Positions 1,960 through 61,150 of a stretch of 64,000 nucleotides of DNA are shown piece after piece. Under the pieces are notes generated by a model. The model was not told the origin of the DNA. It ran no database searches and saw only the letters and a program-made list of their open reading frames with translations. Positions within the stretch are counted from its first letter, which is position 1, and each line of letters opens with the position of its first letter. The translations under genes were made by a program, and so were the position numbers. The stretch lies in the NCBI GenBank assembly GCA_038046005.1, contig JBBSXB010000001.1:52769-116768 (forward strand), given 5' to 3'. The DNA is from Nanobdellota archaeon (lineage in GTDB: Archaea > Nanobdellota > Nanobdellia > Pacearchaeales > GW2011-AR1).

Positions 1960-3372
1960 ATGAGCTATATGATTTATGATCTTATTTTGTTGGGAATATT
2001 CATAATTGCAGTTGGAAGTTTTTTATACAGAAAAAGAGAAAATTTGAAGAAGGAAGGTTTGCTTTTTCTTTACAGAGCAGAGTGGGGAATAAAATTAATA
2101 AACAGCGTAGGGAACAAGTATAAAAAAACATTAAAATTTTTGAGTTACATTTCAGTGATATTAGGGTATCTGCTCACTGTAGGAATTCTTTATCTTACTT
2201 ACTCTATTGTTAAAATTTATATATTGCATCCTGAAGTTGTTAGTGCTATAAAAGTCCCGCCGATAACACCATTGATTCCCTACATTGACAAGGTTGTTCC
2301 TTTCTTGCCTCCTTTTTATTTCACATACTGGATAGTAATTTTAGCGATTGTCGCAATAAGCCACGAATTCGCACATGGAATTTTTGCAGTTTATAACAAA
2401 GTGAAGATAAAAAAAACAGGATTTGGATTTTTCCCATTTTTCTTGCCAGTATTTTTAGCCGCTTTTGTTGAGCTTGACGAAAAAGTTATGGTAAAAAAAT
2501 CAAATTTTGCGCAAAGAGCGATTCTTGCTGCAGGAACATTCGCTAATGTAGTTACTGCAGTTATATTCTTTATAGTTTTAGGATTATTTTTCATGGCAGC
2601 TTTTCAGCCAGCAGGAATTACTTTTGATGATTATTCTTATTCTGCTTTAAGTGTTTCATCAATACACTCAATTAATGGCGTCATAGTAGTCAACACTTCT
2701 GAAGAAGGTCTTCAAAAATTAATAAAAAATGCTTCTTTCAATGAGATTGAGGCAGGAGGGAAAAATTATGCCGGTATTAAAGGATTTTCAAGTGATGGGA
2801 AAACTATAGCTCTTTATGATGATTCTCCTGCAATAAAAGCAGGATTAAATGGTGCCATAACTGAAATTAACGGACAAAAGATAATGAGTGTAGATGCTTT
2901 GTCTCAGGAATTATCCAAACATAATCCAGGAGAAAGTGTAATCATAAAAACAGAGACAAGCAATGGAACCAAGAATTATAATATTACTTTGGGACGAAAT
3001 CCTGCTAATTCTGGGAAAGTTTGGTTGGGAGTTGGTTTTTTGACACAAGAAACGAAGGGATTTTTCAATAAGGTTTTTGCATCAATTTCTTCCTTTAAAA
3101 AACCTAATATATACTACAAGTCAGTAATCGGAGAATTTGGATGGTTCATATACCACTTGCTTTGGTGGCTCATACTAATAAGTTTCAGCGTCGCATTGGT
3201 TAACATGCTGCCAATAGGAATTTTCGATGGAGGAAGATTCTTTTATCTAACAATTTTAGCAGTTACTGGAAAAGAAGTTTGGGCCCGAAAAATCTTTAAG
3301 TGGGTAACTTGGCTTTTCATACTTCTGTTGATAGTTTTAATGGTTTTTTGGGCCTTTGCAGTTATATTCTAG
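1960..3372 (+). CDS. Site-2 protease family (M50) membrane zinc metalloprotease with PDZ domain(s)
   Basis: 470 aa polytopic membrane protein. HEFAHG zinc-binding HExxH in a TM helix. Central soluble region with PDZ-like sequence (GIKGFSSDGKTIALYDDSPAIKAGLNGAITEINGQKI). Second-TM LDG-like motif. Confidence 0.8.
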   Translation: MSYMIYDLILLGIFIIAVGSFLYRKRENLKKEGLLFLYRAEWGIKLINSVGNKYKKTLKFLSYISVILGYLLTVGILYLTYSIVKIYILHPEVVSAIKVPPITPLIPYIDKVVPFLPPFYFTYWIVILAIVAISHEFAHGIFAVYNKVKIKKTGFGFFPFFLPVFLAAFVELDEKVMVKKSNFAQRAILAAGTFANVVTAVIFFIVLGLFFMAAFQPAGITFDDYSYSALSVSSIHSINGVIVVNTSEEGLQKLIKNASFNEIEAGGKNYAGIKGFSSDGKTIALYDDSPAIKAGLNGAITEINGQKIMSVDALSQELSKHNPGESVIIKTETSNGTKNYNITLGRNPANSGKVWLGVGFLTQETKGFFNKVFASISSFKKPNIYYKSVIGEFGWFIYHLLWWLILISFSVALVNMLPIGIFDGGRFFYLTILAVTGKEVWARKIFKWVTWLFILLLIVLMVFWAFAVIF

Positions 3373-4095: not shown

Positions 4096-4446
4096 TTATA
4101 AGTCTATGACACCCTCTTTTGTCAATGCAGCAAATCTAATTCCAACTGGAAAATTTATCAGCGCAGAAATCAAAGCCATGTGCTCTTTTCCTTCTCCAGA
4201 AGCTAAACTCAAAGCTACTTCCATGCCGCTAATTTTTCCCTTGAGTTTTTCTGAAAATTCATCTCTAAGCTCTTTTATTTTTTTGCTAAAATCTACCTTA
4301 ATAAATTCAAATGGTTTTTCATGCTTGAATTCTTTTGCAAAGTCATCTCCAAAAATAATTATCTTATCCCATTCTCCATACTTCATTAAACCAGAAACCT
4401 GCGCCCAGGTTCCCTTCCCAGTTGATAATAAAGCTACGAGTTCCAT
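4096..4446 (-). CDS. Hypothetical protein (116 aa)
   Basis: Start codon 1 nt after the stop of the upstream ORF 4448..4645 (coupled, or a frameshift-split gene). Confidence 0.4.
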   Translation of the reverse strand: MELVALLSTGKGTWAQVSGLMKYGEWDKIIIFGDDFAKEFKHEKPFEFIKVDFSKKIKELRDEFSEKLKGKISGMEVALSLASGEGKEHMALISALINFPVGIRFAALTKEGVIDL

Positions 4447-4797: not shown

Positions 4798-5427
4798 ATG
4801 GAACTTGAAGAAGAACTAAAGAAAGCTCTGATAGAGCTAAGGAAAGGAAAAGAAAGAAAGTTTGATCAAACAGTTGACTTAATTGTAAATTTGCAAAAAT
4901 TCAACATAAAAAAAGATTCTGTAAATATTTTTGTTAACCTCCCCCACAAGATAAAAAATAAAAGAATAGCTGCTTTTTTAGAATCAAAGAATTCTGCCAT
5001 AGACACAATAACACAAGATGAGTTCAAAGGTTATAGTGATAAAAAATCTTTAAAAAAACTTGTGAAAAGATTTGATTTCTTTATTTCCCAAGCCAGTTTA
5101 ATGCCAAAAGTAGCCACTGTTTTTGGAAAAGTTTTGGGACCTGCTGGAAAAATGCCTTCCCCCCAACTTGGAATAATTATGAATGTTGATCAAAAAGCCC
5201 TAGAGGAATTAAAGGAAAAAATAAACAAAAGCGTAAGAATAAAGACAAAAGAAGCAAGTATAAAAATTTCAATAGGAAAACAAAGCATGGAAGATGAAAA
5301 GATAATTGATAATATAGTTACAATTTATAATTCTCTGATAAAAGCTCTTCCTAAACAAAAAGAAAACATAAAAAATGTAGAAGTTAAATTCACGATGACT
5401 AAACCCCAGAAAATAAGAATAAAATGA
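4798..5427 (+). CDS. rpl1: Ribosomal protein L1 (uL1)
   Basis: 209 aa. FDQTVDLIVNL and GPAGKMPSP motifs. GGGAGA SD-like sequence upstream. Overlaps the P0 start (ATGA). Confidence 0.9.
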   Translation: MELEEELKKALIELRKGKERKFDQTVDLIVNLQKFNIKKDSVNIFVNLPHKIKNKRIAAFLESKNSAIDTITQDEFKGYSDKKSLKKLVKRFDFFISQASLMPKVATVFGKVLGPAGKMPSPQLGIIMNVDQKALEELKEKINKSVRIKTKEASIKISIGKQSMEDEKIIDNIVTIYNSLIKALPKQKENIKNVEVKFTMTKPQKIRIK

Positions 5428-6251
5428 AATCTAAAGAAACAAAAAGAAAAATTCCAAAGAAAAAAATTGCTGAAGTTGAAAGTTTGAAAAACCTTATAAA
5501 AAGCAAGAAAACAATATTGATTGCATCTATAAAAAATATTCCCGCCTCGCAATTTCAAGAGATATCCAAAAGCCTGAGAGGAAAAGCTGTGGTTAAAGTC
5601 CCAAAAAAAAATCTAATAATAAGAGCCATAGATTCCTCTGACAAAAAAGAATTAGAAGAATTAAAAGAAAGCATAAAAGAAAATACTACAATACTATTTT
5701 CGGATCTTGATGCATTCGATCTCGCTGCTGAGCTGATAAAAAATAAGAGTTATGCTAAGGCTAAAGCCGGCCAAGAAGCGCCTGAAGACATAGAAGTCCA
5801 GGAAGGGCCGACAGAATTAATTCCCGGACCAGCTATAAGTGAACTTGGAGCTCTGGGAATACAAATCCAAATTGAAAAAGGAAAAATCCACATTAAACAA
5901 TCAAAAATTATTGCAAAAAAGGGCGAGAAGATTTCACAGCCAGCCGCTGAAGTAATGGCGAAGCTTGACATCAAACCATTTGTCATATCCTTAATCCCAC
6001 TAGCTGCTTTTGATAATACCGAAAACAAAGTTTACAAAGAGATAAATATTGACCCAGAAGGAACTTTGAATGGATTGAGAAACGCTTTCACAAGATCTTT
6101 GGCATTTGCAGTAAGTATTGCATACACTTGCCAGGGCACAATAAAATTACTTATAGCAAAAGCAGGGAGAAATGAAAAGGCTATTGAAAATTTGATGGTA
6201 AAAACTGATGTTCCGCAAGTAAATTCCGAGGAGGAAATTAAAAATGAGTAA
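5424..6251 (+). CDS. rplP0: Ribosomal stalk protein P0 (uL10). Short form lacking the conserved acidic C-terminal tail
   Basis: 275 aa. uL10 N-terminal domain (IASIKNIPASQFQEISKSLRGKAVVKVPKKNLIIRA). Ends ...VNSEEEIKNE without the EE-rich/GLSALFG tail seen in P1 downstream. Confidence 0.85.
   Translation: MKSKETKRKIPKKKIAEVESLKNLIKSKKTILIASIKNIPASQFQEISKSLRGKAVVKVPKKNLIIRAIDSSDKKELEELKESIKENTTILFSDLDAFDLAAELIKNKSYAKAKAGQEAPEDIEVQEGPTELIPGPAISELGALGIQIQIEKGKIHIKQSKIIAKKGEKISQPAAEVMAKLDIKPFVISLIPLAAFDNTENKVYKEINIDPEGTLNGLRNAFTRSLAFAVSIAYTCQGTIKLLIAKAGRNEKAIENLMVKTDVPQVNSEEEIKNE
6217..6234 (+). repeat. Direct repeat copy 1 (AAGTAAATTCCGAGGAGG) at the 3' end of P0
   Basis: Identical 18-mer recurs at 6578..6595 (3' end of the inserted ORF). 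Both copies encode VNSEE and supply the SD for the next gene. Confidence 0.7.
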
Positions 6252-6603
6252 ACAAGCGCTAGGAACATTTCCAGGATTTGATGAAGAGTTAGAAAGACTT
6301 AGAACCTTAGGACACGAAGCAATAATCTTGGGAAACAGAGAAGAAGTTCGTAGGATACTTAACGAAGATGTATATAATTTTTTATTCCAACAAGATCAAT
6401 ATCAAAGACAGCTTTATAGAACATTTAAAAACTTTGCCGAAGAGAATCCTGAACTAAAACCAATTGTAGGGGAATATTTATCAAAATTAGAACAAAGCAT
6501 CAGAAATAGGGCAGAAGCATTAAATTCTTGGAGTAATGATGTTAGGGGAAATCTAAAACTCTTTGAAGATTCAATAAAAGTAAATTCCGAGGAGGGAAAA
6601 TAA
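6244..6603 (+). CDS. Hypothetical protein (119 aa) inserted between P0 and P1
   Basis: Overlaps the P0 stop by 8 nt and the P1 start by 1 nt. Strong SD (GAGGAGG) 10 nt upstream. No recognisable family. Flanked by an 18-nt direct repeat. Confidence 0.5.
   Translation: MSKQALGTFPGFDEELERLRTLGHEAIILGNREEVRRILNEDVYNFLFQQDQYQRQLYRTFKNFAEENPELKPIVGEYLSKLEQSIRNRAEALNSWSNDVRGNLKLFEDSIKVNSEEGK
6578..6595 (+). repeat. Direct repeat copy 2 (AAGTAAATTCCGAGGAGG) at the 3' end of inserted ORF 6244..6603
   Basis: Exact 18-nt match to 6217..6234, 361 nt apart. Brackets the inserted ORF. Confidence 0.7.
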
Positions 6604-6893
6604 TGGAATATATATACGGAGCTTTATTGTTACACAAACTTGGAAAAGAAGTTAGTGAACACAATTTGAAAAGTGTTATTGCGGCTACAGGAGCGCATAC
6701 AGATGAGGGAAAAATAAAATCCCTTATTGCAAGTTTGAAGGGTGTTGACATAGATTTAGAATTAGCAAATGCTAGTTTAGTTTCGGCCGCACCTGCTCAA
6801 GGAAGTGCACCTGCACACGAAAAGCACGAAGAGAAAAAGCACGAAGAAAAGAAAGAAGCTGCTGCAGAAGGATTATCTGCTCTATTTGGTTAA
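6603..6893 (+). CDS. rpl12: Ribosomal stalk protein P1 (L12e/aP1)
   Basis: 96 aa. MEYIYGALLLH N-terminus, Ala/Glu/Lys-rich linker, C-terminal EGLSALFG tail. Confidence 0.9.
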   Translation: MEYIYGALLLHKLGKEVSEHNLKSVIAATGAHTDEGKIKSLIASLKGVDIDLELANASLVSAAPAQGSAPAHEKHEEKKHEEKKEAAAEGLSALFG

Positions 6894-6969
6894 TTTTTAT
6901 TTTAAGAGCAGGTAATCACAGACTTAGTTATAACACTATAGTAATTCTTAAAAAAGGTCGAAATTTATT

Positions 6970-7442: not shown

Positions 7443-7515
7443 GCCTCTGTAGCTCAGTCAGAAGAGCAGTTGCTTCGTAAGCAAAAGGTCATGGGTGCAA
7501 ATCCCATCAGAGGCT
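7443..7515 (+). tRNA. tRNA-Thr (anticodon CGT)
   Basis: Hand-folded cloverleaf: acceptor GCCTCTG/CAGAGGC, D-stem GCTC/GAGC, anticodon loop TTCGTAA, T-arm ATGGG-TGCAAAT-CCCAT, discriminator T. One G-A mismatch at the top of the anticodon stem. Confidence 0.75.
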
Positions 7516-7521
7516 TCTAAA

Positions 7522-9465
7522 ATGTGGAGCTTATATAAAGGAGATAAATTTCTGGAACCTCTTCGTTTTTCTAATGGGAAATCTCAGGAAAATGTTGTTA
7601 GCGAAGTTCTGGAAGAGATAAAAAAAGGGACAAAGGTCATATTCATCAAAGGAGTCTGTGGAACTGGGAAAAGCGCCATAGCATTGAACATTGCTAGAAA
7701 AATTGGAAAAACTTCTATTGTTGTGCCTGGAAAAACTCTCCAAAGGCAATACAAAAAAGATTATGAAAATGAGAAATATGTTTTGAAAGATGATAAAACA
7801 AAATTAAAAATAAGTGTGATAACTGGGAGAAAGAACCATAAATGCAGATTTTTAATGGAAAACAAAGAGGCCATTCCTGTCGTAAAAAGAGAAATTAACT
7901 CTAAACTTCACGATATTTTTGCAGGGAAAAGAGAAGATATTGAAAATGAGATAAAAAAAGATGAGTCTGCAGATAATGATTCTTTGCCTTGTAAGATAGA
8001 GATAAAAGAAAGGAACTGGAACAAGTTGAAATCATATCTAAATCAAAACAAAGATGTTGACTCGAGTTCTTTCACAGAGTTAAGGGACGTAAAAAGAATT
8101 CCTGTAGCAAGTGTTTGTCCTTATTGGTCTCCGGTTTTGCCTGCAAGATTAGAACTTAAGGGAAAAATATTTGCTAACGCTAAAAAAAAGAAGTATATGG
8201 GCCTAGAAAATACTGAATTTATTTTCTATCAGAGAAAAGAAGGCTGTCCTTTTTACAGCCAGTTCAATTCTTTTATAGAGTCTGATGTTATAGTCTTTAA
8301 TTCAAGTAAATATAAAATAGAGTCTTCAATGAATAGAAAACCTTTGACAGAGGTAGAAATAATAGATGAGTGTGATGAATTCTTAGACAGTTTTTCAAAT
8401 CAAAAAAATCTTAATATAGAAAGGCTTCAAAATTCTTTGATTAATTATGTTAATGAAAATGAAAAAGATAAGAAGGAGATATCTGAGTTATTGGAAATAA
8501 TCCAGTATATTAAAAGAGATGCAAGAATAAATAATGCTATTGTTACAAAAGAAATAATCCCTCTAAAAGAAACGGGAGTTTATGATTTATTAAAAATTAT
8601 ATTAAAAAGTTCTGGAATTTTTGAAGAAGCTGATGATGAAAGCTATCTTTTTGATTGTGAGGAGATAGCAAAGACTTTCAAGGATTTTGTTAATGAAACT
8701 TACATCACTGCTGAAAAAAAAGACAAAAACATTATAATTAGTTTAGTTACGACAAATCTCGCAAAAAAGTTTAAAGAAATGGTTGATAAAAATAAAGCTA
8801 TAGTTTTAATGTCTGGAACTTTACATTCTAATCAAGTGTTAAAAGATATTTTTGGATTGGATAATTTTAAAGTTATTGAGGCTGAGGTTGAGAGCCAAGG
8901 AAGCATAATCGTGAAAAAAACAGGTTTTGAAAAAGATTTTAAATATTCTAATTTGTCCAATGGAAAACATTCAAGGGAAGAATATCTTAAAGCTTTGAAT
9001 AAATGTGTTGAGATTGCGAAAAGACCGACACTCATACATATCAATGCATTCATGGATTTGCCAAGCAATCAAGAAATTCAAGAATATGATCTGAAAAATT
9101 TGATAAGCAGAGATGAAATAAAAGATTCGCAGTCACAGAATAACGAAGTGGAGACTATAAACAAATTCAAAAATAAAGAAGTAGATGTTTTGTTCTCGAC
9201 TAAGGTTTCAAGAGGCATGGATTTTCCCGGAGATGAATGCAATAGTATTGTTTTTACAAAATACCCAAATCCAAACGTACAAGATCCTTTTTGGAAAATA
9301 TTAAACAGAACAAGACCTGAGCATTATTGGGAGTTTTACAGGGATAAAGCTAAAAGAGAATTGTGGCAGAAGATATACAGAGGCTTGAGATTTAAAGAAG
9401 ACAAAGTTGAAGTTTTAAGCCCTGATGTAAGAGTGTTGGATTTTTTTGAAAATAAAGGGAAATGA
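7522..9465 (+). CDS. Rad3/XPD-family Fe-S DNA helicase (superfamily 2)
   Basis: Walker A GVCGTGKS, DExD-like IIDECDEF, XPD-type SGTL motif (LMSGTLHS), four Cys spaced as in the XPD 4Fe-4S domain (KCRF, LPCKIE, SVCPYW, EGCPFY), C-terminal RGMDFPGDECNSIVFTKYPNP. The track ORF begins at a GTG inside the tRNA, so the start was moved to ATG 7522. Confidence 0.65.
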   Translation: MWSLYKGDKFLEPLRFSNGKSQENVVSEVLEEIKKGTKVIFIKGVCGTGKSAIALNIARKIGKTSIVVPGKTLQRQYKKDYENEKYVLKDDKTKLKISVITGRKNHKCRFLMENKEAIPVVKREINSKLHDIFAGKREDIENEIKKDESADNDSLPCKIEIKERNWNKLKSYLNQNKDVDSSSFTELRDVKRIPVASVCPYWSPVLPARLELKGKIFANAKKKKYMGLENTEFIFYQRKEGCPFYSQFNSFIESDVIVFNSSKYKIESSMNRKPLTEVEIIDECDEFLDSFSNQKNLNIERLQNSLINYVNENEKDKKEISELLEIIQYIKRDARINNAIVTKEIIPLKETGVYDLLKIILKSSGIFEEADDESYLFDCEEIAKTFKDFVNETYITAEKKDKNIIISLVTTNLAKKFKEMVDKNKAIVLMSGTLHSNQVLKDIFGLDNFKVIEAEVESQGSIIVKKTGFEKDFKYSNLSNGKHSREEYLKALNKCVEIAKRPTLIHINAFMDLPSNQEIQEYDLKNLISRDEIKDSQSQNNEVETINKFKNKEVDVLFSTKVSRGMDFPGDECNSIVFTKYPNPNVQDPFWKILNRTRPEHYWEFYRDKAKRELWQKIYRGLRFKEDKVEVLSPDVRVLDFFENKGK

Positions 9466-9898: not shown

Positions 9899-9997
9899 CG
9901 CCCCCGCCAGGAATCGAACCTGGAAGCCCAGAGGGCCTGGTTCTCTTGTCTAAATCTCAAACTCAAGACCAGTGCTCTACCATTGAGCGACGGAGGC
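9899..9997 (-). tRNA. tRNA-Ser (anticodon TGA) with 19-nt intron after position 37
   Basis: Sense strand reads GCCTCCG-TC-GCTC-AATGGTA-GAGC-A-CTGGT-CTTGAG[TTTGAGATTTAGACAAGAG]A-ACCAG, a long variable arm GCCCTCTGGGCTT, CCAGG-TTCGATT-CCTGG, CGGGGGC-G. Class II structure and G73 discriminator are consistent with Ser. Confidence 0.7.
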
Positions 9998-60152: not shown

Positions 60153-60223
60153 ATGCGCCGGCCGGGAGTCGAACCCGGGCAATTTGCTTGGAAGGCAAAT
60201 GTCATACCGTTAGACCACCAGCG
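60153..60223 (-). tRNA. tRNA-Gly (anticodon TCC)
   Basis: Cloverleaf folded by hand: acceptor GCGCTGG/CCGGCGC, anticodon arm TTTGC-CTTCCAA-GCAAA, T-arm CCGGG-TTCGACT-CCCGG, discriminator A. Confidence 0.85.
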
Positions 60224-60278
60224 CGAGTAAATTACAAATATAGCAGCGAAAAACAAGTTTTAAAGGTTTTCTGTAAAG

Positions 60279-60707
60279 TTAAAGAATATTGTGCTTCTTG
60301 AGAAATTCCAGATGAGTGGGAATTATATTATTTATTTCATTTTTTGTAAGAATTAACTCGCTCGCCTCATCATTAAGGAAAATTTTTCCGGGTTTTAATC
60401 CACAAAGAAAAACCAGTGAAATTGCATGCTGACCGCCCCTTTTCCAATCATCAAATTCCATAAATCCTAAAAATTTTTTAACATCTAAACCAATTCCTAA
60501 CTCTCTGCCTGAAATTCTTTGAATTGATTCTTGGACAATTTCACCAAACAAGACAGTTCCTCCAGGAAGATGCCATTTTCCTAAGTAGGGAGGGATTGAC
60601 CTTTTAGTTAGTAAAATTCCTTCTTTGCTTTTTATAATTAGATCAACACAAAGTCTGGGAACCTTTGAGTAAATTTCCTTAAATTCTTCAGGCGAAAGTT
60701 TTTTCAT
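60279..60707 (-). CDS. NUDIX hydrolase
   Basis: 142 aa. Nudix box GGTVLFGEIVQESIQRISGRELGI (Gx5Ex7REUxEExGU). Confidence 0.8.
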   Translation of the reverse strand: MKKLSPEEFKEIYSKVPRLCVDLIIKSKEGILLTKRSIPPYLGKWHLPGGTVLFGEIVQESIQRISGRELGIGLDVKKFLGFMEFDDWKRGGQHAISLVFLCGLKPGKIFLNDEASELILTKNEINNIIPTHLEFLKKHNIL

Positions 60708-60740
60708 TCTACGAAGATGAAAATTTATTTTAAATAATTA

Positions 60741-60815
60741 TGCCCGAGACAGGAGTTGAACCTGCGACCCCAAGGTTAGGAACCTTGTGCTCTATCCAGG
60801 CTGAGCTACCCGGGC
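60741..60815 (-). tRNA. tRNA-Arg (anticodon CCT)
   Basis: Acceptor GCCCGGG/CTCGGGC, D-arm GCTC-AGCCTGGAT-AGAGC, anticodon arm CAAGG-TTCCTAA-CCTTG, T-arm GCAGG-TTCAACT-CCTGT. Confidence 0.85.
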
Positions 60816-60825
60816 TTAAACTAAA

Positions 60826-60909
60826 TGCGGAGTACAGGATTTGAACCTGCGCAGGCACTAAGCCAATGGAGCCTTAATCCATCCCATTTGACCACTCTGG
60901 CAACTCCGC
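60826..60909 (-). tRNA. tRNA-Leu, class II (anticodon loop reads TTAAGGC, so anticodon AAG as folded)
   Basis: 84 nt. Acceptor GCGGAGT/ACTCCGC, 3-bp D-stem, anticodon arm ATGGA-TTAAGGC-TCCAT, 15-nt variable arm, T-arm GCAGG-TTCAAAT-CCTGT, discriminator A. Confidence 0.7.
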
Positions 60910-60940
60910 GTAAAAACCTACGGTTTTTTATCCCTCAAGC

Positions 60941-60970
60941 AACTTCCTCTCTTTGCCTCCAAAGGAAGTT
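60941..60970. other. Perfect 7-bp inverted repeat (AACTTCC-N16-GGAAGTT) between the divergent tRNA-Leu and 5S rRNA genes
   Basis: Seen directly: AACTTCCtctctttgcctccaaaGGAAGTT. Could be a hairpin or regulatory element in the shared promoter region. Confidence 0.4.
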
Positions 60971-61004
60971 TTAACAAAATTATCAAATATTAGCTGTATA
61001 AAAA

Positions 61005-61016
61005 GCTTTATAAATG
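61005..61016 (+). promoter_or_regulatory. Putative TATA box (TTTATAAAT) for 5S rRNA
   Basis: Located about 21-30 nt upstream of the predicted 5S 5' end. Confidence 0.35.
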
Positions 61017-61035
61017 CTATAAATCATAAACTTTT

Positions 61036-61150
61036 GGAGACGGCCATAGTAGATTGGAAACACCTGGTCTCTTTCCGAACCCAGAAGTTAAGCTTTCTAC
61101 GCCGTTGGTGTTAGTGGCCGAAAAGCTGCGAAGCTTCGGTGCTGTCTCTC
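61036..61150 (+). rRNA. rrf: 5S ribosomal RNA (unlinked to 16S/23S in this window)
   Basis: GGAGACGGCCATAG...CCTGGTCTC.TTCCGAACCCAGAAGTTAAGC...GCTGTCTC matches the conserved 5S helix I/loop A/helix II-III pattern. The 5' and 3' ends pair as helix I. Confidence 0.8.

What the first reader, a model, noticed from the sequence alone, without database searches (positions are those of the whole stretch)
6217..6603. Unrecognisable ORF inserted between the stalk proteins P0 and P1, bracketed by an 18-nt direct repeat
Seen in sequence: the 119-aa ORF 6244..6603 is wedged into the universally conserved L10(P0)-L12(P1) junction. It overlaps the P0 stop by 8 nt and the P1 start by 1 nt. The exact 18-mer AAGTAAATTCCGAGGAGG occurs at the 3' end of P0 (6217..6234) and again at the 3' end of the inserted ORF (6578..6595). 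Both copies encode VNSEE and provide the Shine-Dalgarno for the next gene. This looks like the scar of an insertion or duplication event that carried a new gene into the stalk operon. Because the gene is translationally coupled to the stalk proteins, a ribosome-associated function is plausible.
Basis: partly seen in the sequence, partly recalled or inferred. Interest (0 to 1): 0.8.

Follow-up and report, generated by a model that had tools for sequence, protein, structure and literature searches.

The report
Small orphan gene inserted between P0 and P1
A real but uncharacterised 119-residue helical protein gene has been cleanly inserted between the two ribosomal stalk genes of a tiny DPANN archaeon by duplicating the ribosome-binding region of P1, and the same junction carries unrelated small genes in about a quarter of related species.

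Summary
In detail: ORF 6244-6603 lies between P0 and P1. The 18-mer AAGTAAATTCCGAGGAGG occurs exactly twice, at the 3' ends of P0 and of the ORF.

- **Real sequence.** The same sequence was assembled on 13 independent contigs.
- **Clean insertion.** The nearest relatives (P0 90% and 84% identical) have P0 abutting P1, with one copy of the repeat. The window therefore carries a clean 361-nt insertion that duplicated P1's Shine-Dalgarno region.
- **Real gene.** Six distant homologues (28-41% identical in the family alignment) exist. Five of them also sit directly upstream of P1. AlphaFold gives a confident four-helix bundle. No known family, fold or P0/P1 relationship was detected.
- **Junction hot spot.** 20 of 78 related species carry a coupled small ORF at this junction, from at least three unrelated families plus singletons.

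The position may therefore reflect a permissive, highly expressed hot spot rather than a proven ribosomal role. Function is unknown, and expression was not tested. Whether the gene was gained recently (favoured) or retained while its sisters lost it is not fully settled. Moderately interesting.

The parts
4798..5427 (+). Ribosomal protein L1 gene, first gene of the L1-P0-X-P1 chain. Its stop overlaps the P0 start (ATGA).
   Evidence: Pfam PF00687, E 8.7e-34; ORF list.
5424..6251 (+). Stalk protein P0 (L10), 275 aa. It ends ...VPQVNSEEEIKNE and lacks the canonical GLxxLFG factor-binding tail.
   Evidence: Pfam PF00466 plus PF17777; 90% identical to P0003; tail comparison.
6217..6237 (+). Direct-repeat copy 1 (18 nt exact, 20/21 nt extended). 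It encodes VNSEE of P0 and carries GGAGG (6230-6234), 9 nt before the ATG of the inserted ORF.
6236..6596 (+). The 361-nt segment absent from the closest relatives. Its boundaries can slide within the repeat, so 6217-6577 or 6235-6595 are equivalent descriptions.
   Evidence: Alignment with L087 and L092; sliding identity.
6244..6603 (+). Inserted gene X, 119 aa (NCBI MEK6917401.1, 'hypothetical protein AABW51_00455'). It is a predicted four-helix bundle whose last ~5 residues are modelled with low confidence.
   Evidence: Homologues; AF2 pLDDT 85.8, pTM 0.76; no Pfam, PHROG, NCBIfam, PADLOC or PDB match.
6578..6598 (+). Direct-repeat copy 2. It encodes VNSEE at the C-terminus of X and carries GGAGG (6591-6595), 7 nt before the P1 ATG. 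It corresponds to the single native copy in the relative L087.
6603..6893 (+). Stalk protein P1 (L12), 96 aa, with the canonical AAAEGLSALFG tail. Its ATG shares one base with the stop of X (TAATG).
   Evidence: Pfam PF00428.

Best explanation
**What it is.** ORF 6244-6603 is a genuine protein-coding gene, called X here. It belongs to a very small, unannotated family of roughly 107-143-residue soluble four-helix-bundle proteins. The family is known only from Pacearchaeota/Woesearchaeota-type DPANN archaea.

**How it got there.** In this lineage X sits on a clean 361-nt insertion placed exactly in the translation-initiation region of P1. The last ~20 nt of the ancestral P0 (VNSEE codons plus the GGAGG Shine-Dalgarno) are now present twice.

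**How it is expressed (inferred).**
- Copy 1 stays at the end of P0 and drives X. The SD lies 9 nt from the ATG, which is embedded in ATGAGTAA and overlaps the P0 stop.
- Copy 2 forms the unstructured C-terminal tail of X and drives P1 (TAATG), as in insert-free relatives.
- X is therefore translated as a coupled link in the L1-P0-X-P1 relay, probably at stalk-protein-like levels, without disturbing P1 initiation.

**When (favoured).** The event most likely happened after the split from the 90%-identical sister lineage. The likely route is recombination at the short P1 initiation-region homology, for example a single crossover of a DNA circle carrying X plus one copy of that region. The mechanism is inferred, not shown.

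**Why this site.** The P0-P1 junction in this clade is a recurrent site where unrelated small genes are gained, lost and replaced. The location is best read as a permissive, highly expressed slot.

**What it does.** Biochemical function is unknown. My best guess, about 0.3, is an accessory protein acting on or near the translation apparatus. The alternative is a passenger gene with an unrelated cytosolic role.

**What the confidence covers.** The confidence value applies to the structural and evolutionary account: a real gene, a clean insertion with a duplicated initiation region, coupled expression, and a hot-spot junction. It does not apply to the functional guess.
For: **Insertion**
- L087 (P0 90% identical) has ...CAAGTAAACTCCGAGGAGGAAAAATAATGG, with the P0 stop overlapping the P1 ATG and no insert. 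L092 (84%) also lacks the insert.
- Nucleotide identity to L087 is about 85% in L1/P0 and 90-100% in P1, right up to both insert edges.

**Recency**
- The window's flanking repeat scores 38, against a non-cognate mean of 15.4. None of 46 non-cognate junction pairs reach it. Only L023, among the 23 other insert-bearing loci, has a comparable locus-specific repeat (32; 1 of 46 non-cognate pairs reach it).

**Real sequence and real gene**
- 13 contigs encode the identical protein.
- phmmer against 1.8 billion representatives found 5 homologues, E 1e-18 to 3e-6. A profile search and a local HMM added a sixth.
- Conserved motifs are PGFDEE, GNREE, LFxQDQY, YLSKLE and LNSWxND.
- AF2 with 6 sequences gave pLDDT 85.8 and pTM 0.76: four helices with a low-confidence C-terminal tail.
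- dN/dS is about 0.4 between the two closest family members, against 0.02 for their P1 genes.

**Conserved position**
- L094, L097 and L018 are P0-X-P1. L093 and L099 are X-P1, with the contig cut upstream.

**Coupling signals**
- Both junctions carry the SD and an overlapping stop/start.
- Both junction RNAs fold less stably than shuffled controls, z +1.2 to +1.5.

**Hot spot**
- 20 of 78 species-representative loci have a 194-456-nt P0-P1 gap.
- In 20 of 23 gap-bearing loci tested, the gap is at least 97% open on the + strand. None is open on the - strand, and shuffles reach the observed value in 1% of trials or fewer.
- The ORFs fall into at least three families plus singletons, with no profile-profile similarity between them.
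- Carriers are scattered on a P0 tree, and sister taxa differ in content.
- The neighbouring L1-P0 junction is filled in only 3 of 80 loci (4 show a gap over 250 nt, but L047 is an artefact of masked N's).
Against: - No donor is identified. The nearest X homologue is only 45% identical.
- X has the host's G+C (32.8% against 33.0%), so nothing marks it compositionally as foreign.
- The perfect repeat could come from gene conversion or from selection on two functional initiation regions rather than from recency. Deletion between the repeats would produce exactly the L087 junction, so loss in the sisters is not excluded.
- No expression data were available, and there is no sequence variation within the population to test selection.
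- dN/dS of about 0.4 in relatives, together with a frameshifted C-terminus in L094, indicates weak constraint.
- Locus-specific flanking repeats are absent from most other insert-bearing loci. A common repeat-generating mechanism is therefore not demonstrated.
- The hot-spot claim rests on one control junction only.
Confidence: 0.7

Rival explanations
1. X is ancestral at the P0-P1 junction of this group. It was retained here and lost in the sister lineages by deletion between the two initiation-region repeats. The perfect 18-mer is maintained by selection or gene conversion.
For: - X homologues occupy the same junction in lineages whose P0 is 63-68% identical, including L094 in the neighbouring clade.
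- Recombination between the repeats would give exactly the L087 junction.
- X has host-like G+C.
Against: - It needs at least two independent losses (L087 and L092) plus many more across the tree.
- Old insert-bearing loci, including the X carriers L094 and L097, share only 9-10 identical nt between their junctions. The window shares 18-20 nt, including synonymous positions.
Confidence: 0.2
2. X is a dedicated ribosome-stalk partner, for example a P0/P1 assembly factor, a stalk-bound regulator or a hibernation-type factor. Its position reflects a need for stoichiometric co-expression with P0 and P1.
For: - Six of seven family members lie immediately upstream of P1, and the seventh neighbours the S8e gene.
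- Translational coupling is tight.
- Conserved motifs lie in or next to the H1-H2 and H3-H4 loops, which by helix topology (inference) sit at one end of the bundle and would suit a binding surface.
- Neighbourhood with ribosomal protein genes is a recognised predictor of translation-related function in archaea (general knowledge).
Against: - The family is extremely rare: 7 clusters among 5.8 billion proteins. It is absent from the closest relatives.
- Unrelated families fill the same slot in other species.
- The S8e-adjacent member has its own AT-rich upstream region and is not coupled.
- There is no similarity to any ribosomal or translation factor fold.
- Evolution is fast, with dN/dS about 0.4.
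Confidence: 0.3
3. X is one cassette of a dedicated exchange system. Small genes carrying a copy of the P1 initiation region circulate as circles or by transfer and integrate site-specifically in front of P1, in an integron-like way.
For: - Many unrelated ORFs lie at one junction with rapid turnover.
- The window's insert is flanked by a direct repeat of the target.
- L023 carries four initiation-region copies separating one ORF and two mini-ORFs.
- L014 looks like two units fused.
- An identical 23-nt 5' junction, GGAGGAAATTAAAAATGAGTAAA, occurs in the window and in L023 although their P0 proteins are only 63% identical.
Against: - No recombinase or integrase lies in the neighbourhood.
- There is no palindromic attC-like site, and the junction RNA/DNA is unstructured.
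- Cognate flanking repeats are no better than non-cognate pairs in 22 of 24 loci.
- Members of the 'Y' family also occur as ordinary stand-alone genes.
- There are no viral or plasmid-like hits.
Confidence: 0.1
4. The ORF is not a functional gene. It is a chance open frame in junk DNA, a piece of P0 split off by a frameshift or misassembly, or a degenerate P1 duplicate.
For: - Only a self-hit appeared in the first word-indexed search.
- There is no Pfam domain.
- Close relatives lack the ORF.
Against: - 13 independent contigs carry it.
- It has six homologues with conserved motifs and a confident predicted fold.
- The gap is 99% open on the + strand, against 36% in shuffles.
- The X profile finds nothing in 120 P0 homologues, including long ones.
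- hhalign of X against P1 gives probability 0.1%.
Confidence: 0.03

Closest known systems
Archaeal L1-L10(P0)-L12(P1) stalk operon with translational coupling
   Same: Gene order L1-P0-...-P1, overlapping stop/start codons (ATGA, TAATG), and SD sequences embedded in the end of the upstream gene.
   Different: An extra, non-ribosomal ORF is interposed, and the P1 initiation region is duplicated. P0 here also lacks the canonical C-terminal GLxxLFG tail.
Non-ribosomal genes embedded in archaeal ribosomal-protein operons, e.g. RNase P protein subunits, adenylate kinase, SecY (general knowledge, not tested here)
   Same: A non-ribosomal-protein gene is co-transcribed and co-translated with ribosomal protein genes.
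   Different: Those genes are broadly conserved and have known functions. X is confined to 7 protein clusters, is absent from sister species, and shares its slot with unrelated ORFs.
Phage 'morons' and integron gene cassettes: small independent genes added at recurrent junctions between conserved genes
   Same: Diverse, unrelated small ORFs occur at one conserved junction with patchy distribution and rapid turnover. In the window a direct repeat flanks the insert.
   Different: There is no own promoter or terminator, since expression relies on coupling. There is no integrase or attC-like palindrome, and no viral context.
Target-site duplications of transposable elements and MITEs
   Same: A direct repeat of target sequence brackets an insertion that is absent from relatives.
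   Different: The 18-21 nt repeat is longer than usual target-site duplications. There are no terminal inverted repeats at the insert ends, no transposase, and only a single copy in the 64 kb window.
Generic and de novo-designed four-helix bundles (best structural neighbours)
   Different: Sequence identity is only 12-14%, no functional family emerges, and Foldseek finds nothing with E below 0.001 in PDB or BFVD.

Membership tests
Ribosomal stalk protein P1/P2 (PF00428, Ribosomal_60s) paralogue | Sequence or profile similarity to the P1 N-terminal dimerisation domain | tested here: not met
   No PF00428 hit at E up to 0.1. hhalign of the X profile against an 86-sequence P1 alignment: probability 0.1%, 1 aligned column.
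Ribosomal stalk protein P1/P2 (PF00428, Ribosomal_60s) paralogue | Conserved C-terminal factor-binding tail (…GLxxLFG) | tested here: not met
   X ends ...SIKVNSEEGK, whereas P1 ends ...AAEGLSALFG.
P0 (L10) C-terminal segment split off | Similarity to the region beyond residue ~260 of longer P0 proteins; a relative in which the two ORFs are fused | tested here: not met
   The X HMM against 120 P0 homologues (up to 432 aa) gave a best E of 0.42. The sister P0 (272 aa) ends at the same point without the insert.
Insertion sequence / MITE | Terminal inverted repeats at the element ends | tested here: not met
   The inverted-repeat scan of 5400-6950 found no pair positioned at the insert ends.
Insertion sequence / MITE | Transposase gene, or multiple dispersed copies | tested here: not met
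   tblastn of X and the 18-mer search found only the one copy in the window. X has no transposase domain. The rest of the genome was not available.
Integron-type gene cassette | Adjacent tyrosine-recombinase integrase and an attC-like imperfect palindrome at the cassette end | tested here: not met
   Neighbouring genes have no integrase Pfam family. There is no palindrome at the boundaries. The junctions fold less stably than shuffles.
Free-standing homing endonuclease gene | LAGLIDADG, HNH, GIY-YIG or PD-(D/E)xK domain | tested here: not met
   No Pfam, NCBIfam or PHROG hit. The predicted fold is an all-alpha four-helix bundle.
Apolipophorin-III (PF07464), the only Pfam hit listed | Score at or above Pfam's gathering threshold (36.3 bits) | tested here: not met
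   14.0 bits, E 0.055, 40 residues.
Anti-phage defence or phage protein families | Match to a PADLOC or PHROG model, or to viral contigs or structures | tested here: not met
   PADLOC: no family for X, and only isolated weak hits for single relatives. PHROGs best E 0.059. No relative in IMG/VR. BFVD best E 0.67.
New 'X' family (this gene plus P0122-P0127) | Significant sequence similarity over the full length and shared motifs (PGFDEE, GNREE, LFxQDQY, YLSKLE, LNSWxND) | tested here: met
   phmmer E 1.3e-18 to 2.7e-6; profile search; alignments A2 and A4.
New 'X' family (this gene plus P0122-P0127) | Location immediately upstream of P1 | tested here: met
   Window, L094, L097, L018, L093 and L099 meet it. 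P0125/L098 is the exception, a stand-alone gene next to S8e.
Ribosome-associated protein (functional class) | Physical association with ribosomes or stalk proteins | not testable with these tools

The most novel reading that the evidence does not exclude
In Pacearchaeota/Woesearchaeota-type DPANN archaea, the P1 translation-initiation region acts as a capture site. Small genes are gained, swapped and lost there through recombination at the short initiation-region sequence. This produces a hypervariable set of very highly expressed small proteins wired into the stalk operon, and some of them, including X, are lineage-specific partners or modulators of the ribosomal stalk.
Probability: 0.15. Interest if true: 0.85.

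Novelty: new variant of a known kind. Interest (0 to 1): 0.58.

Why it matters
The L10(P0)-L12(P1) junction is among the most conserved gene adjacencies in cellular life. This clade of ultra-small, host-dependent archaea breaks it repeatedly. About a quarter of species carry a coupled small gene there, drawn from unrelated and wholly uncharacterised families.

If these proteins act on the stalk, they would be new lineage-specific translation factors in organisms with otherwise minimal ribosomes. That would be notable because most P0 proteins in this clade have also lost the canonical factor-binding tail.

If they are passengers, the locus is a natural example of how new genes gain instant high expression by copying a neighbour's ribosome-binding region. 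The window's perfect 18-21-nt duplication looks like a fresh snapshot of that step. Either way, the case defines a concrete and testable set of 'dark matter' proteins.

Tried and rejected
1. **Word-indexed protein search of X.** It returned only itself. The exhaustive phmmer search was needed to find relatives.
2. **Family libraries.** Pfam, PHROGs, NCBIfam, PADLOC and PDB sequence searches gave nothing above threshold.
4. **X as a diverged P1 or a P0 C-terminal fragment.** Rejected.
5. **Metagenome scan with the full family alignment.** It failed for lack of a conserved stretch. A 3-sequence alignment refound only the L094 contig plus three short matches of 35 residues. The one inspected, L102, is a clearly unrelated contig.
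6. **Flanking direct repeats as a general hallmark of all P0-P1 inserts.** Rejected. Cognate junction pairs are no more similar than non-cognate pairs (permutation p = 0.22; 0.56 without the window). Only the window and L023 stand out.
7. **A conserved nucleotide element upstream of P1 beyond the SD.** ACTC is enriched (39 of 82 loci against 4% background), but the ungapped profile is weak outside the SD and the A-rich spacer. This is most simply homologous P0-tail codons. I make no claim of a regulatory RNA.
8. **SD-sequestering hairpins at the junctions.** Not supported.
9. **X, Y, Z and the singleton inserts as one fast-evolving superfamily.** No profile-profile signal.
10. **Within-population polymorphism.** None in X, and no insert-free allele among contigs with the identical P1.
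11. **Literature.** No paper found linking Pacearchaeota to the ribosomal stalk or describing ORFs in this junction.
Full report
**1. Observation**

- L1 is 4798-5427, P0 is 5424-6251, a 119-aa ORF is 6244-6603, and P1 is 6603-6893. All lie on the + strand.
- Pfam confirms L1, P0 (L10 plus the archaeal/eukaryotic insertion domain) and P1. It gives nothing significant for the 119-aa ORF.
- The ORF's ATG sits in ATGAGTAA and overlaps the P0 stop by 8 nt. Its TAA shares one base with the P1 ATG.
- AAGTAAATTCCGAGGAGG occurs at 6217-6234 and 6578-6595 and nowhere else in the window, even with 3 mismatches. Shuffles expect 0.1 matches, and 0 of 100 shuffles gave 2. The repeat extends to 20 of 21 nt.
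- Both copies encode VNSEE. Each supplies a GGAGG 9 nt and 7 nt upstream of the next start codon.

**2. Not an artefact**

The organism is an uncultivated 'Nanoarchaeota archaeon' MAG. The protein is NCBI MEK6917401.1, a hypothetical protein. The identical protein is encoded on 13 contigs from several independent runs, and these match the window at 99.87-100% nucleotide identity. The only differences lie outside the ORF. All 8 contigs encoding the identical P1 carry the ORF upstream, so it is fixed in the sampled population.

**3. It is an insertion relative to the closest relatives**

A P0-based scan of one genome per GTDB species, plus protein look-ups, recovered two near relatives. One has P0 90% identical (L007/L087-L091, same groundwater site) and the other 84% (L092).
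- In both, synteny is conserved on both sides and P0 (272 aa) is followed directly by P1.
- L087 reads ...CAAGTAAACTCCGAGGAGGAAAAATAATGGAATAC. That is one copy of the repeat, with the P0 stop overlapping the P1 ATG.
- The window differs by a clean 361-nt block.
- Identity to L087 is about 85% through L1/P0 and 90-100% through P1, right up to both edges. No foreign flanks were imported.
- The insert's G+C (32.8%) equals the window average of 33.0%.

**4. The ORF is a real gene of a small new family ('X')**

The word-indexed search saw only a self-hit. An exhaustive phmmer search of 1.8 billion representatives found five relatives at 31-45% identity, with E from 1e-18 to 3e-6. A local HMM and a profile search added a sixth, P0127 in L018.
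- The family shares the motifs PGFDEE, GNREE, LFxQDQY, YLSKLE and LNSWxND.
- AlphaFold2 with this 6-sequence alignment gives pLDDT 85.8 and pTM 0.76. The model has four helices (12-28, 32-67, 69-94, 100-115). The last five residues (115-119), at the end of the repeat-encoded VNSEEGK tail, are modelled with low confidence.
- Between the two closest members, dN/dS is about 0.4 at dS 0.44. Their P1 genes give 0.02. X is constrained but evolves fast.
- X is not a diverged P1 (hhalign probability 0.1%). It is not a detached P0 C-terminus.

**5. Position is conserved in the family**

| Locus | Arrangement |
|---|---|
| L094, L097, L018 | L1-P0-X-P1 |
| L093, L099 | X-P1, contig cut upstream (L099 shows an acidic P0-like tail) |
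| L098 (P0125, most divergent) | stand-alone gene with its own AT-rich upstream region, next to S8e |

The stand-alone member lacks the SD-encoded tail. This agrees with the tail being operon context rather than part of the fold.

**6. The unexpected context: the P0-P1 junction is a hot spot**

Among 78 species-representative loci with both genes, 46 have P0 and P1 within 5 nt, 12 have a 6-120-nt spacer, and 20 (26%) have a 194-456-nt gap.
- Each large gap holds a + strand ORF of 63-154 aa. It starts at or overlapping the P0 stop and usually ends within 5 nt of the P1 ATG.
- In 20 of 23 gap-bearing loci tested (the 20 above plus the window, L094 and L097), the gap is at least 97% open on the + strand. 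None is open on the - strand, and shuffles reach the observed value in 1% of trials or fewer.
- The ORFs fall into the X family, a 'Y' family with an N-terminal KY[DE][IF]PxxG motif in seven loci, a 'Z' pair, and about ten singletons. None has a Pfam domain. There is no detectable profile-profile similarity between the groups.
- Y paralogues also occur as ordinary stand-alone genes near the operon.
- On a P0 tree the carriers are scattered and sister taxa differ in content. This is a single-protein NJ tree and should be treated as indicative only.
- The adjacent L1-P0 junction shows a gap over 250 nt in 4 of 80 loci. Three of these (L012, L025, L053) are filled by an ORF, and L047 is an artefact of masked N's.

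**7. What the repeat means**

In all these genomes, whatever ORF precedes P1 ends with an SD-bearing, A-rich tail (…SEENK*, …GGNK*). That tail is the P1 translation-initiation region. Inserted ORFs are likewise preceded by an SD in the P0 tail, often with an ATGA(R)TAA overlap.

A cognate versus non-cognate test shows this similarity is generic. Only the window (score 38, 0 of 46 non-cognate pairs as good) and L023 (32, 1 of 46) have locus-specific junction repeats. The window's perfect 18-21-mer is therefore special. It points to a recent duplication of the native P1 initiation region that accompanied the insertion.

L023 carries four such copies separating one ORF and two mini-ORFs. This suggests recombination among these copies.

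**8. Mechanism**

*Shown:*
- a clean insertion with duplication of the initiation region;
- both junctions keep the SD, the spacing and the overlapping stop/start;
- both junction RNAs are less structured than shuffles.

*Inferred:*
- X is translated by coupling or re-initiation after P0, and P1 after X. X is therefore made at stalk-protein-like levels and P1 expression is preserved.
- The insertion arose by recombination at the short initiation-region homology, for example Campbell-type integration of a circle carrying X plus one copy. Other microhomology-mediated routes fit equally well.
- The gain postdates the split from L087. The alternative, ancestral presence with repeat-mediated loss in the sisters, keeps about 0.2 probability.

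Function is unknown. Position conservation and the ribosomal neighbourhood suggest a translation-related accessory role, which I put at about 0.3. Against that stand the rarity of the family, its absence from sister species, and the occupation of the same slot by unrelated ORFs. These fit a passenger in a permissive, highly expressed slot.

**9. Comparison with known systems and novelty**

The operon and its coupling are classical. Non-ribosomal genes inside archaeal ribosomal operons are known (general knowledge). X meets none of the defining features tested for P1/P2 paralogues, P0 fragments, IS/MITE elements, integron cassettes, homing endonucleases or defence proteins; the membership table gives the detail.

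I found no literature on ORFs in this junction in DPANN archaea. I rate the finding a new variant of a known kind: an accessory gene embedded in a ribosomal operon, but at a recurrently re-used junction and caught with a fresh duplication of the neighbour's ribosome-binding region. Interest is moderate to fairly high at 0.58. The hot-spot phenomenon and the P0-tail loss would surprise a specialist, but no function is established.

Noticed in passing
L008, L013, L014, L018, L019, L023, L034, L040, L041, L044, L046, L047, L048, L050, L053, L060, L073, L074, L079, L082 (between P0 stop and P1 ATG; coordinates): 20 of 78 related species carry a coupled 63-154-aa ORF in the P0-P1 junction. They belong to at least three unrelated families (X; 'Y' with N-terminal KY[DE][IF]PxxG; 'Z') plus about ten singletons. 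None has a Pfam domain.
   Followed up: yes
window 5424-6251; loci L007-L086: P0 lacks the canonical C-terminal factor-binding tail (GLxxLFG) in the window and in 65 of 78 related species. All 13 P0 proteins that keep the tail are separated from P1 by a spacer or an inserted ORF. Loss of the P0 tail in this clade may itself be worth study.
   Followed up: partly
L012 ~2643-3000, L025 ~2731-2982, L053 ~360-658: The L1-P0 junction is also filled by an 81-120-aa + strand ORF in 3 of 80 loci. These ORFs are unrelated to the P0-P1 inserts.
   Followed up: partly
L023 1354-1732: There are four tandemly spaced copies of the P1 initiation-region motif (GGAGGAAATTAAAA(T)AAAATG). They separate a 79-aa ORF and two mini-ORFs of 14 and 20 codons before P1. 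The first junction is identical over 23 nt to the window's P0/X junction.
   Followed up: partly
L014 3947-4411: The 154-aa junction ORF contains an internal ...LTQTSEENK tail-like motif followed by a new M-G-K start. It looks like two units fused by loss of a stop codon.
   Followed up: no
L073 1110-1448 (-), L028 1864-2214 (-), and a further copy in L034: Stand-alone paralogues of the 'Y' junction family lie upstream of the L1 operon on the opposite strand, next to a conserved 116-aa gene that is homologous to window 4096-4446.
   Followed up: partly
L094 5001-5432 (also L095, L096): This X homologue has a frameshifted C-terminus relative to its 69%-identical relative P0123. It reads about 50 nt into P1 in another frame, and three independent contigs agree.
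   Followed up: partly
L098 78-425: The most divergent X homologue (P0125) is a stand-alone gene with an AT-rich promoter-like upstream region. The S8e call that overlaps its end is probably an over-extended N-terminus.
   Followed up: partly
window ~6656-6662: Three short-read contigs (L001, L003, L006) end about 55 nt into P1. The likely cause is that a co-occurring 90%-related species shares the near-identical P1 5' sequence and breaks the assembly graph there.
   Followed up: no
window 9899-9997 (-): Rfam reports a 99-nt tRNA match (48.7 bits) that ARAGORN does not list. It may be an intron-containing archaeal tRNA.
   Followed up: no
window 7443-7515 and 7495-9465: The mechanical GTG start of the 656-aa helicase ORF overlaps tRNA-Thr. 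Gene calls on matching contigs give 647 aa, so the true start is probably downstream of the tRNA.
   Followed up: no
L092 4819-4836; L027, L070: In a few relatives P1 is preceded by an A-rich spacer with no recognisable SD, e.g. L092 TAAATAAAACAAAAATACAATG. P1 initiation signals are therefore not uniform in the clade.
   Followed up: no
window 60154-61150: A tRNA-Gly, tRNA-Arg and tRNA-Leu cluster on the - strand lies next to a 5S rRNA gene (61036-61150, + strand).
   Followed up: no
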